From positions 1 to 56,267 of the forward strand of contig JAWOGL010000232.1 of assembly GCA_046496945.1 (NCBI GenBank): a DNA stretch of 56,267 nt. Direction: 5' to 3'. Position 1 is the first letter of the stretch, and every line of letters begins with the position of its first letter. This document shows positions 46 through 6,554 of this stretch, piece by piece. Below the pieces are notes generated by a model, which saw nothing but the letters and a program-made list of their open reading frames with translations, was not told the origin of the DNA and searched no databases. The stretch is from Desulfonatronovibrio sp. (lineage in GTDB: Bacteria > Desulfobacterota > Desulfovibrionia > Desulfovibrionales > Desulfonatronovibrionaceae). The translations under genes and the position numbers were made by a program.

Positions 46-610
46 ATGATTTGACGGCCTTTGGCAGGATGGGATTGTAGCTGAGACAGCCTCATCCTGC
101 TAAGACTCGTGGCCCGTTCTTGCGCATCAGGCAGGGGATGTCAGGCAGCTATAGAGAGGCTTCATGAGAAGGATACTGTGAGCAGGTCGAATGTTTAAAA
201 AACTGCCTTGGACCATATCCGCCGTGGATTCCAACTGACAACATAACGGCTATGGACCTGAGGTAGTCCTCTCCAATTATTTTAAAGACTGCCAGAATAA
301 ATCTTGATAATTCAGGCAGGGTTAAACTTCTCTTTGAGCATGCACGTAGTCTTGCCCCTCATGTATCCTCAATCAGGTTATCAAAACACACTGCCCAAAG
401 CTACTACAGCGGCCTTCTCCACAGGCCCAGCCTCATAAAATTCTTGCTATTACTTTCCTGTACTGCTTATTTACCGACACAGGCAGAAACTCCCTCCACT
501 GATTTCGTAACTCGAATTTTCTGAACTGCCAACAAACCCAGTGCCAACTACTGCCAACCAAGTTGGCTCCAACTTAAGGCTGATCGCGGCTGGCTTCTTT
601 ACGCAACGTG
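46..610. repeat. ~550-bp island repeat, copy A (full length)
   Basis: Aligns by eye with 1648-2200, 3620-3940 and 4537-4642. Shared blocks include ctttggcaggatggg, ggaccatatccgcc, ttcaggcagggttaaacttctc, ccgacacaggcagaaactccctccactgatttcgtaactc and ccagtgccaac. Confidence 0.9.
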
Positions 611-695: not shown

Positions 696-1064
696 ATGAT
701 TACAATGCGGAAAACGGATTCGAAAAAAGTTGCCTGTGCGCTGATCATCGCCTGCGCCCTGGCCTTGACAGCGGTCACGCCTGCGTTGGCTGACGAGAAT
801 TATGCCTGCAGGTGTAAAGGTATTAAGCACTGGATTCTGTTCGTACCCTCGTATGCCAACTGCGGAAACGATTTTGCCAGTGGCAGAAAAGGCGAAGTGA
901 TACAAGGCATCTCCCGTGACGGTCTCTCCAGCTATATTCCTTCCGGAGTCATCGGTCAGGTAACTTCAGGGAACTCGCAATGCGGATATTACCCTGATTC
1001 AGGATGGAACTGCGTGGAGATGAGCGGAAGTTCCATTCCGGATTGCATTAACAAAATGCGTTAA
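696..1064 (+). CDS. Small secreted Cys-rich hypothetical protein
   Basis: AGAGGA RBS upstream; Sec-type signal peptide ending ALA|DE; six Cys in the mature part. Confidence 0.75.
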   Translation: MITMRKTDSKKVACALIIACALALTAVTPALADENYACRCKGIKHWILFVPSYANCGNDFASGRKGEVIQGISRDGLSSYIPSGVIGQVTSGNSQCGYYPDSGWNCVEMSGSSIPDCINKMR

Positions 1065-1196
1065 CAACTATCAGTAATCCGGGATGTCTGTTGTCGCTTA
1101 CATGTATGATTTTAGATTCATAAAGTTTTGCCATGGGATGGGTCGTGCTTAACGAGATGCAAGCCCCTACGGTCCACCCTTAACAGGAGAAATATC

Positions 1197-1628
1197 ATGA
1201 AGAAGCTTCTCGCGGTTGCAACTATGGCGGTTATGCTTTGCCTGACCGGGCTGGTCATTTCAGGGACAGCCATTGCCCAGCAGTGCGTGGACAACGGGGA
1301 TGGAACAGTGACGGACAACGGCACTGGCCTGATGTGGCAAAAGGCGACGGCTGGACCTATGAACTGGGATGCGGCTATGAGCTATGCCTCCAGCCTTTCA
1401 CTGGGCGGTCATTCCGGCTGGGGGCTGCCGAGCAAGGATGAATTATTGGGGCTGTACCATGGGCCGTCATGTCGCGATATGATGGACGTGCGAAAAGACT
1501 ATTACTGGTCGTCTACTACCTACGCCCTCTATACGGACTACGCATGGCTCGTGAACTACCTCGGCGGCGTGGGCAGTAGCGATAAGTCGGGTAGTTACTA
1601 CATTCGTGCCGTGCGTGCCGGACAGTGA
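1197..1628 (+). CDS. Secreted DUF1566 (Lcl C-terminal, CLec-fold) protein, putative DGR target 1
   Basis: AGGAG RBS before ATG 1197; signal peptide; motifs DNGDGTVTD-x2-TGLMWQ, W-x-LPS-x2-EL, YWSST and terminal IRAVR. Confidence 0.9.
   Translation: MKKLLAVATMAVMLCLTGLVISGTAIAQQCVDNGDGTVTDNGTGLMWQKATAGPMNWDAAMSYASSLSLGGHSGWGLPSKDELLGLYHGPSCRDMMDVRKDYYWSSTTYALYTDYAWLVNYLGGVGSSDKSGSYYIRAVRAGQ
1491..1628 (+). repeat. Putative DGR variable region VR1 with IMH-like 3' end
   Basis: Compared with 4374-4514: the first 36 nt and last 23 nt are identical, and internal differences fall mostly at positions 1-2 of NNC/NNT codons. Confidence 0.75.
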
Positions 1629-1647
1629 TGGGTGCTTTGGCACTTGG

Positions 1648-2200
1648 ATGATTTGATTCTTTGGCAGGATGGGGTTGTCGCTGGGGCAGCCCTATCACGC
1701 GGATGCAGTTGGATCTTTTTATGCATCAGGCAGGGGGGTATCCAGACAGCTATGGAGAGACTTCATTAGAAGGATACAGTGCACAGTCAAAAAGTGTTTA
1801 AAAGACTGCCCTGGACCATATCCGCCTTGGGTTCCAACTGGACAACAATCCGGCTATGCCTGTGTAGTAGTTCTATCCGATTATTTTGTAGACTGCCAAA
1901 TGAAAGCTTGATAATTCAGGCAGGGTTGAACTTTTCTCAGAGCATGCACGTAGGCTTGCCCCCATTACCCGATACAGTGTCAAGTCGTCCTGCCTATTAA
2001 AAAAGCTGCCATCATCAACATTGCAACCATCATATAATCCTTGAAAACTCCTTTCAAGGCTGGTTAATTTTCATGAAGGGCAAAACTCCCCCACTATTCC
2101 CGCAGCTTAATGCCCTGAGCAGTCCATAACTCCAGTGCCAACTGCCCACCAGGTTGCCGCCAACCTATGACTGACCGTGGCTGGCTGCTTTTCACAACAT
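1648..2200. repeat. ~550-bp island repeat, copy B (full length, 3' half more diverged)
   Basis: Starts 20 nt after the DUF1566 stop; colinear with copy A through ctga(t/c)cg(c/t)ggctggct. Confidence 0.88.
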
Positions 2201-2374
2201 ATTGTTATTATTCTCCGTAACCTCCATCCTTAAGCCAGGCGTTTATAATCTCAATCTCTTTTTTGGTATAGCTGTGATGATTTCTGCTGCCAAAGCTCTA
2301 ATCCAGGGGTCCTGTCCGTATTTTTCTTCCAAGGTCGACTGAATCCTAACTGGTTCCAAGGCGTTGTGTTTTCG

Positions 2375-2450
2375 TGTGAGCCGATTAAGACATTTAATCG
2401 GCTCACAATTACTATTGATAGTGAGCCGTTTGTATGATATGTTTGGCTCA
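2375..2450 (+). promoter_or_regulatory. Tandem palindromic operators TGAGCC-N17-GGCTCA upstream of the Fic gene
   Basis: Perfect 14-bp inverted repeat at 2375-2388 / 2394-2407; a second site at 2422-2450 has the same spacing and overlaps the A of the ATG. Confidence 0.65.
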
Positions 2451-3562
2451 TGAGACAATACAACTGGCAAAAATCCGATTGGCCGTATTTTACTTACAGT
2501 CTTTCAGGACTTGAAGACAAGCTATTTGAGTTTGCAGAAAAAATAGGTCGGATATCAGGCATACTGGATTCTTTACCAGAAGATATTCAGCAAGAAACGC
2601 TCATCAATATGATGTTGGAAGAAGCCATTAAAACTTCCGAAATTGAAGGAGAGTATATAAGCCGACAAGATGTATTGTCCTCCATTCGCAAAAATCTGGG
2701 GCTGCACGTTTCTGCTTCGATGATAAAAGATCCAAAAGCCGAAGGGCTGGGTCAGCTTATGATTGATGTAAGAAATTCATTCAAAGAACCTCTTTCCATA
2801 CAAAAGCTTTTCCACTGGCACCGGATGTTATTCGGTGCCAGTGACAATATCATGGTCGGCAATTGGAGAACTCATGACGAGCCTATGCAGGTTATATCTG
2901 GAGCCATTGGAAAGGAAAAAGTTCATTTTGAAGCTCCACCGTCCTCGCAGATTCCATCTGAAATGGATCGATTTATCCATTGGTTCAATGAGACCAAACC
3001 GACCGGAAAGAAACCATTACCAAACACTTTGGTTCGAAGCGCGATTGCCCATTTGTATTTTGAGACGATTCATCCTTTTGAAGATGGCAATGGACGAATC
3101 GGACGGGCTATTGCCGAAAAGTCCTTGTCTCAAGGTATAAACCGTCCTGTTTTGTTAAGCTTGTCTGATACCATAGAAGCCAATAAAAGAGATTATTATG
3201 ATGCATTGAAAGTTGGTCAGCGATCAAACGAGGTTACCAAATGGATACACTACTTTATTGATACAGTCCTCCAGGCTCAGGATAAAGCAGAAAAACAAAT
3301 AGAATTTACTCTGCAAAAAGTTAAGTTTTTTGACAAGTATGAACTTCAGCTTAGCGAACGCCAAAAGAAAGTAATCAACAGGATGTTGGATGAAGGCCCG
3401 GACGGCTTTGAGGGCGGGATGAATGCAAGAAAATATATCGGAATAACCAAAGTCTCAAAAGCTACTGCAACAAGAGATATCCAGCAGTTGGTAGATTTGG
3501 GAGTACTTGTGCGTTATGGAAAAGCAGGTGGAAGAAGTACTAGTTATCGTGTGAACCTATAG
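2450..3562 (+). CDS. Fic family protein (DUF4172-type N-terminus, Fic domain, C-terminal wHTH)
   Basis: Canonical HPFEDGNGRIGR motif; N-terminal YNWQxxDWPxF; C-terminal SKATATRDIQQLV HTH; AT-rich. Confidence 0.95.
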   Translation: MRQYNWQKSDWPYFTYSLSGLEDKLFEFAEKIGRISGILDSLPEDIQQETLINMMLEEAIKTSEIEGEYISRQDVLSSIRKNLGLHVSASMIKDPKAEGLGQLMIDVRNSFKEPLSIQKLFHWHRMLFGASDNIMVGNWRTHDEPMQVISGAIGKEKVHFEAPPSSQIPSEMDRFIHWFNETKPTGKKPLPNTLVRSAIAHLYFETIHPFEDGNGRIGRAIAEKSLSQGINRPVLLSLSDTIEANKRDYYDALKVGQRSNEVTKWIHYFIDTVLQAQDKAEKQIEFTLQKVKFFDKYELQLSERQKKVINRMLDEGPDGFEGGMNARKYIGITKVSKATATRDIQQLVDLGVLVRYGKAGGRSTSYRVNL

Positions 3563-3619
3563 CTCTATCTTAAGAAACGTAAGGAATGTTCAAGTTGCCC
3601 TGAATTGGCTCTGATATTT

Positions 3620-3940
3620 CTATGGCCATGGCATAATCCTGTTCAATTATTCTGAAGACTTCCGGGATAAAGTTTGATTATTCAGGCAGGCTTAAACTTC
3701 TCTCAGAGCATGCGCGTAGTCTTGACCACCATGTATCCGCAATCAGGCCAGTCAAATCATTTTGACCAAAGCAACCCCTGCTGCCTTCACCACCGGCCCA
3801 GCCTCATAAAAAATCTTGCTATTGCTTCCCTATACTGCTTATTCACCGACACAGGCAGAAACTCCCTCCACTGATTTCGTAACTCAAATTTCCTGAACCG
3901 CCAATAAACTCCAGTGCCAACCACTGCCAAACAAGTTGGC
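3620..3940. repeat. Island repeat, copy C (5'-truncated)
   Basis: Matches ~250-568 of copy A, including an identical block of ~40 nt (accgacacaggcagaaactccctccactgatttcgtaactc). Confidence 0.9.
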
Positions 3941-4070
3941 GCACACTTTGAGGCCTAATCAAGGAGTTTTTTTCCCTTTTATGTTGTTATTACTCACTTT
4001 TTTATTCTGGTATGTATAATGCTTATAAACAGGAAACCTGGACAAGATTATTTAACTTAAAGAGGAAGAC

Positions 4071-4514
4071 ATGAGGGCAGTACAACAAAAGTGGCTTGTA
4101 ATCGTGGCAATGGCATTCATGCTTTGTCTGGCCGGGCTGGTCCTTTCAGGGACGGCCTTTGCCGACAGGTGCATGGATAACGGGGATGGGACTGTGACTG
4201 ATAACGGTACGGGCTTGATGTGGCAGAAGGCAACGGCTGGTCCAATGAAATGGGATACGGCCATGAGTTATGCCTCCGGACTTTCACTGAGAGGACATTC
4301 CGGCTGGGGGTTGCCGAGCAGGGATGAATTATCAGGACTGTTTAATTCGCCGTGTCGCAATATGATGGACGACCGAAAAGACTATTACTGGTCGTCTACT
4401 ACCTACGCCAACGATACGCTCGGCGCGTGGCACGTGTACTTCTACAACGGCAACGTGAACGTCAGCCATAAGTCGAATAGTTACTACGTTTGTGCCGTGC
4501 GTGCCGGACAGTGA
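4071..4514 (+). CDS. Secreted DUF1566 (Lcl C-terminal, CLec-fold) protein, putative DGR target 2
   Basis: AGAGGA RBS; signal peptide; same motifs as 1197-1628; C-terminus AWHVYFYNGNVNVSHKSNSYYVCAVRAGQ. Confidence 0.92.
   Translation: MRAVQQKWLVIVAMAFMLCLAGLVLSGTAFADRCMDNGDGTVTDNGTGLMWQKATAGPMKWDTAMSYASGLSLRGHSGWGLPSRDELSGLFNSPCRNMMDDRKDYYWSSTTYANDTLGAWHVYFYNGNVNVSHKSNSYYVCAVRAGQ
4374..4514 (+). repeat. Putative DGR variable region VR2 with IMH-like 3' end
   Basis: Paralogous to 1491-1628; retains four AAC codons and one AAT at variable sites. Confidence 0.75.
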
Positions 4515-4536
4515 TGGGCGATTTGATTCTTCGGAT

Positions 4537-4642
4537 ATTTGACCCTTTGGCAGGATGGGGTTATCGCTGAGGCAGCCCTATCACGCGGATGCAGTTGGAG
4601 CTTTTTATGCGTCAGGCAGGTATGGTCAGTCTTCATGAGAAG
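4537..4642. repeat. Island repeat, copy D (5' ~100 bp only)
   Basis: Near-identical to the start of copy B (ctttggcaggatggggtt...ggcagccctatcacgcggatgcagttgga...tcaggcagg). Confidence 0.88.
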
Positions 4643-5132
4643 AATCAGGCTATTTTTCTGAGATAGTCCAGCCCCCTGAATTTTGAAGACTACCTGCCTC
4701 CCGAAGCTGCTGATCCAGGGGGCATGCTTCGGGGCAGGCTATACTATCCATATACCAAAATGATCGCCTATGACTCTGAGGGGATAAGCCTTGGGCGATT
4801 CTGGGATGGAACAGAAAACAATGGAAGGCTCAAAGGATGTGGAAAAGGGCTGGAGTTACTGTGGACAAAATGATTCAACTGTTGCAGAGTCTTGATTGCT
4901 GAATCACTCAGGAAATGAAGGATCATGCCGTGGCCGAGCTGCTTACTGAAAAAGTGTTTGGGGCAGAGGAATGATCAGTTTTTTTAGCTATTGATATTGT
5001 GAAGACTGGCAAAAGAAAGTTTGACAATTTAGGCATTTTTGGACTTCTATCAGAACATGACTATATTCAATAAGTACGCAGCAAAAACAACTCAAGGGCC
5101 TGCTGGCCCATAAATATGGCTGAGATCAAAAA

Positions 5133-6084: not shown

Positions 6085-6354
6085 TTATTTGCCGGTGTCT
6101 GTCTTTTCCATTGGGATTATCTTTGCCCCTTGTCTCAGGCTGTCCAGATAATCAGCCCACCACTGCATTATTTTGCGACGATCATCCAGGTAAAGTGCCC
6201 GGTTGTAAATACCTCTGATGGTGTTTTTATCCACGTGAGCCATCTGTATTTCAATTACCCTGGAATCCCAGAGACCGGATTCATGCAGACCGGTTGAACC
6301 TATGCTCCTGAATCCATGAGCGCCCATCTGCCCTTTGGAAATACCTATGACACG
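6085..6354 (-). pseudogene. Truncated P4-like tyrosine integrase (C-terminal catalytic part only)
   Basis: HGFRS...AH...IRGIYNRA-x-YL..RR..MQWWADYLD; ~90 aa; lies just downstream of the tRNA-Leu 3' end. Confidence 0.88.
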
Positions 6355-6379
6355 CTGACATCAAAGAATCCAGGCGCAC

Positions 6380-6413
6380 AAAAAAGAAAAGCCCGGACAA
6401 TATGCCCGGGCTT
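6380..6413 (-). terminator. Rho-independent terminator after tRNA-Leu
   Basis: Minus strand AAGCCCGGGCA-TAT-TGTCCGGGCTT followed by a T-rich run. Confidence 0.7.
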
Positions 6414-6468
6414 AAGCTTTGAATTTATTTACTTTATTTGTTCAGTCTGACCTGACTGGATTTGTTGA

Positions 6469-6554
6469 TGGTGCCGAAGGGGGGACTCGAACCCCCACGA
6501 GCGTTGCTCACTACCCCCTCAAGATAGCGTGTCTACCGGTTCCACCACTTCGGC
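6469..6554 (-). tRNA. tRNA-Leu(GAG)
   Basis: GCCGAAG acceptor stem, anticodon arm CTATC-TTGAGGG-GGTAG, long variable arm, GGTTCGAGTCC, CCA end; sits downstream of secG. Confidence 0.95.

What the first reader, a model, noticed from the sequence alone, without database searches (positions are those of the whole stretch)
1197..4514. Two DUF1566 genes carry the DGR adenine-mutagenesis footprint, but no RT or template is in view
SEEN: the 5' coding parts of the paralogues differ mostly at silent third positions (gac/gat, gga/ggg, aca/act, acg/act, ggc/ggt, caa/cag, gcg/gca, cct/cca). The pattern reverses in the last ~140 nt (1491-1628 vs 4374-4514). After 36 identical nt, 15 codons differ, plus one codon indel, and 13 of the 15 keep their third base. 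Eleven fit NNC/NNT variants of AAC/AAT: ctc/aac twice, tat/gat, gac/ctc, tac/ggc, ctc/cac, aac/tac, ggc/aac twice, gat/cat, ggt/aat. Scaffold codons (acg, tgg, gtg, ggc, aag, tcg) are invariant, and both genes end in the same gtgccgtgcgtgccggacagtga. KNOWN: DGRs rewrite a C-terminal VR by A-to-N mutagenic reverse transcription of an AAC-rich template repeat, and CLec-fold domains, including DUF1566, are recurrent targets. INFERENCE: both VRs were written from one template, which is absent from this window, as are RT and avd. They would therefore be targets of a DGR core lying left of the window, elsewhere in the genome, or lost. The products are small stand-alone secreted proteins rather than phage tail fibres.
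Basis: partly seen in the sequence, partly recalled or inferred. Interest (0 to 1): 0.9.

Follow-up and report, generated by a model that had tools for sequence, protein, structure and literature searches.

The report
Orphaned DGR lectins in soda-lake bacteria
Two small lectin-fold genes of a sulfate-reducing bacterium carry tips mutated almost only at the adenines of a matching template, the mark of a diversity-generating retroelement (DGR); no such enzyme was found in this genome or in the related genomes that carry the gene family, so the tips are likely frozen leftovers, although some relatives keep the unmutated template inside a sister gene.

Summary
Observation confirmed: 36 identical nt, 15 differing codons plus one indel, 13 keeping base 3. 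A real template-like stretch turned up in relatives G004 and G035. Against it, mismatches fall at template adenines (gene A 19/38 A vs 5/76 other; gene B 13/39 vs 3/78), unlike the 5' parts. Complete target-avd-TR-RT DGRs with the same template peptide exist in other Desulfobacterota. No RT, avd or template was found in this 92%-complete assembly, and no RT of this clade in any of 10 genomes with matching variable regions. The genes belong to a large radiation of short, predicted-secreted Lcl_C proteins, many under sigma-54-like promoters; alleles look fixed. Orphan DGR targets are known (Treponema denticola). The unusual part lies outside the window: 11 distinct relatives' proteins keep the unmutated poly-Asn template in frame inside a paralogue, with no RT in the two genomes checked. 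Best reading: frozen products of a lost DGR core. Rivals: an unassembled core, or a stored template awaiting an RT in trans.

The parts
1197..1628 (+). Target gene A: 143-aa Lcl_C (DUF1566) protein with an N-terminal hydrophobic leader (signal peptide judged by eye)
1503..1616 (+). Variable region A: 19/38 template-A mismatches, 5/76 others, one codon deleted
4071..4514 (+). Target gene B: 147-aa Lcl_C protein; model pLDDT 94, best PDB match the Legionella Lcl C-terminal domain (8q4e, TM 0.71)
4386..4502 (+). Variable region B: 13/39 template-A mismatches, 3/78 others
1617..1734 (+). Shared gene end and 3' flank of A (candidate IMH-like end plus TTTG repeats; function untested, no significant hairpin)
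4503..4620 (+). Shared gene end and 3' flank of B (same as for A)
46..100 (+). A third copy of the post-VR flank at the contig start, so a further family gene likely lies in the unassembled DNA to the left
3926..3940 (+). Palindromic upstream site (candidate enhancer-protein site), 82 nt before the sigma-54-like site of B
4008..4023 (+). Sigma-54-like -24/-12 site of gene B (consensus match only)
1134..1149 (+). Sigma-54-like site of gene A (one mismatch; no palindrome within 300 nt)
696..1064 (+). Cys-rich 122-aa ORF with leader, no Pfam match, under the same palindrome (553-567) and sigma-54-like site (634-649)
2450..3562 (+). DUF4172-Fic gene between the two targets
6085..6554 (-). Integrase remnant (6085-6327, weak Pfam hit below cut-off) and tRNA-Leu(GAG) (6469-6554): right border of the accessory island

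Best explanation
Genes A and B are DGR-written lectin genes that have likely lost their DGR core, so their variable tips are likely fixed now. Shown: the VRs differ from a real template-like sequence almost only at its adenines; the VR scaffolds are more alike than the 5' halves; complete target-avd-TR-RT DGRs with the same template peptide and a similar short secreted target behind the RT exist in other Desulfobacterota; no RT, avd or template is in this assembly. Inferred mechanism: such a DGR entered the ancestors of Desulfonatronovibrio/Desulfonatronum; its short target was duplicated into accessory islands and came under a sigma-54-type promoter; retrohoming rewrote the Asn codons of each copy after the copies had diverged; the core was then lost. 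The copies remain as a static repertoire of secreted ligand-binding proteins, spread by horizontal transfer and reshuffled by recombination at the shared start of the VR. The template-like paralogue of relatives would be a copy of TR recombined onto a target's 5' half. The ligand is unknown.
For: Adenine bias with a negative 5' control; 107 of 114 changed AAY codons keep base 3 in 10 close VRs; at template-Asn positions of 60 homologues only 18 of 840 residues are unreachable from AAY, against 21% in their 5' parts; 63 of 63 full-length VRs are distinct. RT-linked DGRs with this template: G451, G435, L140, and most of 65 longer proteins hit by the template peptide carry RVT_1, two with 100% identity over it. 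No RT or avd in G000. Of 10 genomes with VR-type matches, 9 gave no RT-domain match and G060 only 28-30% matches (positive control G451 at 5e-223). Frozen look: an orthologous VR of G035 and G040 differs at 1 of 117 nt while its 5' part differs at 16 of 342; contigs identical to VR A (run X3) and VR B (runs X1, X2) occur in runs of two studies; A has 3 private non-A changes plus a deletion and B has 1, against 0-1 non-A mismatches in intact DGRs; the C245 copy has an in-frame stop. A collapsed core of this RT type (avd fragment with a stop joined to the RT C-terminus) lies in G044. Precedent: T. denticola isolates keep targets without RT or TR (PMC4891356, passages).
Against: G000 is 92.5% complete in 295 contigs, and it breaks at these repeats; the window starts in a family flank. 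Contig depth on the repeats is 10-20 times that on fic, so many copies are unassembled. Operators' withheld bases in G040, G048 and G060 could hide a core. The read test used assembled contigs at 85% likeness or more, which would miss heavily rewritten VRs, and one of those runs may be the source sample. The template-like stretch is more conserved than its own 5' half (3.5% vs 19% amino-acid difference in 11 proteins), which a dead relic does not obviously predict. The G044 relic sits beside a different target subfamily, so it may be another DGR. In 8 of 9 other pairings of gene B and 7 of 8 of gene A, the synonymous contrast was weak or absent at p<0.01.
Confidence: 0.6

Rival explanations
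1. The core exists in this organism but is unassembled, for example left of the contig start as target-avd-TR-RT-target; A and B are ordinary active remote targets.
For: Contig C214 begins in a post-VR flank, and C143 and C260 also end in family sequence. In intact DGRs of this class a short target follows the RT. The assembly is 92.5% complete.
Against: A 1.6-kb single-copy RT gene should assemble or leave fragments; tblastn with 15 RT and 3 avd proteins found only the VRs themselves and three hits at E 0.01-0.06. The RT is also missing from well-assembled relatives with the family: G035 (one sequence, 99%), G011 (99%), G004 (97%). Identical VR alleles recur across runs.
Confidence: 0.2
2. 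Split DGR: the lineage keeps targets and, in some strains, the template as a sigma-54-driven paralogue with its own terminator; RT and Avd would arrive only now and then on a mobile element and act in trans, giving bursts of diversification.
For: 11 distinct proteins keep 13-14 Asn in the template stretch on two different 5' halves and several tails; three are named from D. magnus, Desulfonatronum lacustre and D. zhilinae. The gene has the palindrome plus sigma-54-like site and a terminator-like hairpin with a T-run about 150 nt downstream (read). It lacks the target-type gene end and TTTG flank. A sister gene with a near-identical 5' half carries a mutated VR (L013). The two differences between the G004 and G035 templates lie in one codon.
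Against: G004 and G035 copies are 96-99% identical in every region, so recent horizontal transfer explains the conservation without selection. No carrier was found: no relative of the RT in viral contigs, only 35-39% matches on plasmids. G000, G040 and G048 have no template copy in their assemblies. One homologue with the template-type tail has a mutated VR (P0140), so that gene can also be a target.
Confidence: 0.15
3. No DGR was involved: the pattern comes from diversifying selection on binding loops plus gene conversion among paralogues, and the Asn-rich paralogue is an ordinary allele.
For: No RT in any genome that holds the close family. Recombination between paralogues is likely (two 5' halves on one template stretch; an A-5'/B-VR joint in one contig of run X1, which may be an assembly artefact).
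Against: Selection on protein does not keep third bases (107 of 114) or exclude E, K, M, Q and W (18 of 840). The Asn-rich stretch is the peptide of real RT-linked templates.
Confidence: 0.03

Closest known systems
Leftover DGR target genes in Treponema denticola isolates that lack RT and TR (PMC4891356; passages read)
   Same: Several dispersed target paralogues whose VRs differ from a relative's TR at adenines, in genomes without the core; read by the authors as leftovers.
   Different: There the core is present in other isolates of the same species. Here no core of this clade was found in any searched genome of either genus (one genome per species), the domain is Lcl_C/DUF1566, and some relatives keep the unmutated template inside a paralogue.
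DGR target category 'd' / CLec2 (DUF1566, DUF823, Fib_succ_major), exemplified by the Legionella DGR (Wu et al. 2018, PMC5758913; passages read)
   Same: DUF1566 VR at the C-terminus; about half of such targets are short stand-alone domains; a few RTs carry a MutS_I-like extension, as the RT-linked DGRs found here do.
   Different: [quoted passage not shown]
Unnamed Desulfobacterota DGRs target-avd-TR-RT(MutS_I)-target (G451 L103, G435 L104, metagenome L140)
   Same: Same or nearly the same template peptide; L140 and G378 carry a 146-147-aa leader-plus-Lcl_C target right behind the RT; TTTG repeats after the target stop.
   Different: Their templates fit VR B less well at non-A sites (11/77 and 12/76) than L009 does (3/78); their targets form a separate clade and lack the palindrome plus sigma-54-like pair (0 of 5).
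Remote and trans-acted targets in cyanobacteria and Thiohalocapsa PB-PSB1 (PMC7517822, PMC10907252; passages read)
   Same: Dispersed CLec paralogues with VR-TR homology away from the core; degenerate loci; proposed removal of the machinery once a variant is selected.
   Different: Those genomes hold at least one complete DGR.
Legionella pneumophila Lcl C-terminal domain (PDB 8q4e)
   Same: Best structural match of the model of gene B (E 8e-6, TM 0.71, 26% identity).
   Different: No collagen-like stalk here; ligand not inferable from 26% identity.

Membership tests
DGR target (VR-bearing) gene | VR differs from a template almost only at template adenines | tested here: met
   A 19/38 vs 5/76; B 13/39 vs 3/78 against L009; 5' control not biased. 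The template is from a relative, not this genome.
DGR target (VR-bearing) gene | C-terminal VR in a CLec-fold domain | tested here: met
   PF07603 above cut-off; model matches Lcl CTD and C-type lectins.
DGR target (VR-bearing) gene | IMH and downstream hairpin that license retrohoming | tested here: inconclusive
   Shared gene end and TTTG repeats, as in RT-linked targets; folding z-scores 0.45 and -0.10; function not testable.
Complete DGR cassette | DGR reverse transcriptase in the genome | tested here: not met
   No RVT_1; tblastn with 15 RT proteins hits only the VRs. Assembly 92.5% complete.
Complete DGR cassette | Template repeat in the genome | tested here: not met
   Word-7 BLASTN of both VRs finds only other VRs; the AAC/AAT scan shows no template.
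Complete DGR cassette | avd or other accessory gene | tested here: not met
   tblastn with 3 avd proteins, best E 0.023; no match (that call had no positive control).
Active DGR | VR-restricted A-to-N polymorphism within a population | tested here: inconclusive
   Only assembled contigs were available; identical VR alleles recur in three runs, but variants under 85% likeness would be missed.
Integron cassette array | Integron integrase in the genome and attC sites | tested here: not met
   No TIGR02249 match over cut-off in G000; the spacer repeat was not tested with an attC model, and the genes carry their own promoter-like sites.
Sigma-54 regulon | -24/-12 site with an upstream enhancer-protein site | tested here: inconclusive
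   Pair at about 80 nt in 14 of 28 genes (14 of 23 in the clade, 0 of 5 outside). Motif match only; regulator unknown; the palindrome alone is not enriched genome-wide (11 vs 4-12 in 3 shuffles).

The most novel reading that the evidence does not exclude
Haloalkaliphilic Desulfovibrionales run a split DGR: the chromosome keeps a large regulated repertoire of secreted lectin targets and stores the template as a coding, sigma-54-driven paralogue, while RT and Avd are not resident and act only when a mobile element brings them. Diversification would then come in bursts and be shared across genera by horizontal transfer of both alleles and template.
Probability: 0.15. Interest if true: 0.75.

Novelty: new variant of a known kind. 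Interest (0 to 1): 0.42.

Why it matters
DGR surveys start from the RT, so repertoires left in RT-less genomes are not counted. Here a whole group of soda-lake sulfate reducers seems to hold many DGR-written secreted lectins (20-odd copies in G004; at least four plus fragments in G000) with no resident enzyme, which shows DGR output being kept, regulated and traded after the machine is gone. The template stored inside a paralogue gives a direct handle: supply the cognate RT and Avd and ask whether dormant targets are rewritten. For the window alone the finding is ordinary: orphan targets are in print and were noted many times in this scan.

Tried and rejected
Exact-pattern scans for the template gave 0 hits in genome, metagenome and viral contigs, although G004 and G035 hold it, so these blanks say little. 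BLASTN of template plus tail found nothing in plasmids or phages. Viral-contig searches with gene B, the template peptide and the RT gave two weak unrelated hits and one blank. Whether the sequencing runs that hold the window also hold a template or RT was not obtained and stays open. The tRNA-Leu site of G001 and G004 holds other genes and no DGR core, and nine family- or repeat-bearing G000 contigs show no core by ORF reading (not scanned with Pfam). A simple VR-TR deletion as the origin of the template paralogue was considered: it should leave the RT behind the template, but the tail matches no RT start. A downstream hairpin was not supported. Integron array rejected. Rfam finds only the tRNA. 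The palindrome was not found in the text of the D. vulgaris sigma-54 paper (PMC4641369, term search only, figures and supplements unseen). The template finder failed on most loci and gave no usable ranking. The tree's bootstrap had not fully settled.
Full report
1. The observation. The window is contig C214 of a 2.64-Mb, 295-contig assembly, 92.5% complete. Relatives' proteins are named from Desulfonatronovibrio and Desulfonatronum, and the runs that hold the stretch are sediment, lake and soda-lake metagenomes. Genes A (1197-1628) and B (4071-4514) are Lcl_C/DUF1566 proteins. Synonymous differences are 17 of 51 in the 5' mature part and 1 of 21 in the VR (p=0.008); over all 45 pairs of 10 close genes they are 705 of 1756 against 194 of 876, though most single pairs are not significant. 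The model of B (pLDDT 94) matches the Legionella Lcl C-terminal domain best, then C-type lectins.

2. A template exists, but not here. BLASTN of both VRs against G000 finds only other VRs: C175 (intact), C245 (in-frame stop), C260 (cut by the contig end), and bare 3' flanks at the starts of C143 and of the window. No RVT_1 match; 15 RT and 3 avd queries find only the VRs. Of 41 genomes searched with VR B, 6 matched. G004 (same genus) and G035 (another family) hold an AAC-rich stretch. Against it, A mismatches 19 of 38 adenines and 5 of 76 other bases, B 13 of 39 and 3 of 78, C175 16 of 39 and 5 of 78; the 5' parts show no bias. Two of the non-A differences are shared by A and B, so their own template differed slightly from this one. 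Across homologues, 107 of 114 changed AAY codons keep base 3, and only 18 of 840 residues at template-Asn positions are unreachable from AAY, against 21% in the 5' parts (60 of the 120 listed hits had a 39-residue VR with under 10 Asn). DGR origin is therefore well supported.

3. The intact system. A pattern search of 401 genomes of the phylum found two complete DGRs, G451 and G435, in the order target-avd-TR-RT-target, with the TR in frame with the RT start (in G435 an insertion splits the TR); a metagenome contig gave a third, L140. Their own VR-TR pairs give 16/40 vs 1/77 and 16/41 vs 0/76. Most of 65 longer proteins hit by the template peptide are RTs, many with MutS_I; two match it at 100%. 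This RT clade is patchy: 8 of 401 phylum genomes at E<=1e-80. L140 and G378 carry a 146-147-aa leader-plus-Lcl_C target behind the RT, the same build as A and B, which is the likely source of the family (inference).

4. A family without its enzyme. The protein search gave 1433 hits; in the top 120, all 63 VRs of full template length are distinct. G004 has 28 protein matches, G048 21, G040 13, G035 9 and G011 3, longer proteins and fragments included. In a tree of 28 5' halves, 23 form one clade (100/99) apart from four RT-linked targets and one G122 gene. Ten of 401 order genomes match the VR part; nine gave no RT-domain match and G060 only 28-30% matches. G035 is a single 3.76-Mb sequence, 99% complete, with no RVT_1 match. 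Two order genomes, G378 and G059, do have complete DGRs of this RT clade, with different templates. G044 holds an avd fragment with a stop joined directly to the RT C-terminus, a collapsed core, but beside another target subfamily. Caveats: one genome per species; withheld bases in G040, G048 and G060.

5. Frozen or active. An orthologous gene of G035 and G040 differs at 1 of 117 VR bases and 16 of 342 5' bases. Contigs identical to VR A (X3) and VR B (X1, X2) occur in runs of two studies, while the fic contig of X1 differs at 5 of 1602 bases. One run may be the source sample, and heavily rewritten VRs would not have been laid. Repeats and gene 5' halves have 10-20 times the depth of fic, so further copies exist in these communities. 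The evidence leans to fixed alleles but is not decisive.

6. The template inside a paralogue. In G004 and G035 the template-like stretch is in frame in a full family gene with leader, promoter-like sites, a different tail and a terminator-like hairpin; no RT or avd lies near it in the 23.6-kb contig or the 20 kb read. Eleven distinct proteins of this type exist, three named from D. magnus, Desulfonatronum lacustre and D. zhilinae; they keep 13-14 Asn, on two different 5' halves. Mean amino-acid difference is 3.5% in the template part and 19% in the 5' part; for 34 diversified members it is 46% and 31%. This fits a selected template, or a recent spread of one template-plus-tail module by recombination and transfer; the G004 and G035 copies are 96-99% identical throughout, which favours recent spread. 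G000 has no such copy.

7. Setting. The genes lie in an accessory island ending at an integrase remnant and tRNA-Leu, among a Fic gene, a DUF4160/DUF2442 pair and repeated spacers. A palindrome about 80 nt before a sigma-54-like site precedes gene B, ORF 696-1064 and 14 of 23 clade genes, and none of 5 others; this is a motif match only, and the sigma-54 consensus is from my own knowledge.

8. Comparison and verdict. Targets left without RT and TR are described in T. denticola (PMC4891356, passages); remote and trans targets in PMC5758913, PMC7517822 and PMC10907252 (passages). Four searches (listings and abstracts) showed no paper on DGRs in these genera or on a template kept in a target paralogue; most subscription papers and all supplements were unseen, and the supplementary tables of the DGR surveys may list such loci. 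Earlier notes of this scan report orphan DUF1566 targets many times (27 findings; unchecked leads). The window's genes work like DGR targets and pass that test; the genome fails the test for a complete DGR. Best reading: frozen products of a lost core (0.6); unassembled core (0.2); split DGR with a stored template (0.15); no DGR (0.03). Interest 0.42.

Noticed in passing
window 250-377, 1854-1981, 3620-3747, 4995-5059; at least 21 copies on 14 contigs of G000: A dispersed repeat of about 130 nt, mostly downstream of accessory genes (HigA-like antitoxins, Fic, sensor kinases, secreted proteins); no Rfam match; many copies lie near contig ends. Nature unexplained.
   Followed up: partly
L009:1198-1800 (G004:C47) and L005 (G035): Family gene whose VR is an almost unmutated template, with its own tail and terminator-like hairpin; 96-99% identical between two families, followed by pieces of a Y1-type transposase gene (label recalled).
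   Followed up: yes
L092 (G004:C42:29374-29648): A second gene with the same promoter and 5' half as the template paralogue is cut by the contig end before its VR.
   Followed up: no
L137:299-830 (G044:C61): Collapsed DGR: avd fragment with an internal stop fused to the MutS_I-like RT C-terminus; TR and the RT catalytic part are gone; a DUF1566-type gene follows.
   Followed up: partly
L102 (G435:C4, about 3430-3700): The TR of a complete DGR is split by an insertion of about 270 nt that encodes a small GIY-YIG-like ORF (label by eye, recalled motif).
   Followed up: no
L020, L050, L080, L090: A subclade of the family has a second VR scaffold ending in WPVR, which points to a second template; not searched for.
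   Followed up: no
window 696-1064; G000 C175:4911-5342, C249:289-681, C175:247-606: Small Cys-rich proteins with leaders; the first three sit under the same palindrome plus sigma-54-like site as the targets, and C175:4911 shares the targets' leader but has another mature part.
   Followed up: partly
L095:7826-10846 (G004), L046/L061 (G048:C121), L103:12314-15823 (G451): Large secreted proteins with N-terminal or internal Lcl_C domains whose VR-like parts fit the same template (L046: 23/39 A vs 6/78).
   Followed up: partly
run X1, joint 1490 to 4374: One contig joins the 5' part of gene A to the VR of gene B through the 36-nt shared block: recombinant allele or assembly artefact.
   Followed up: no
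G048:C201:98436-99359: An integron integrase over the NCBIfam cut-off; G004 has split matches. Family genes lie on the same G048 contig but 40-95 kb away.
   Followed up: no
L028 (G001), L033 (G028), L034 (G033): Other, unrelated DGR-like cassettes (target, avd-like ORF, RT) in relatives; their templates do not match these VRs.
   Followed up: no
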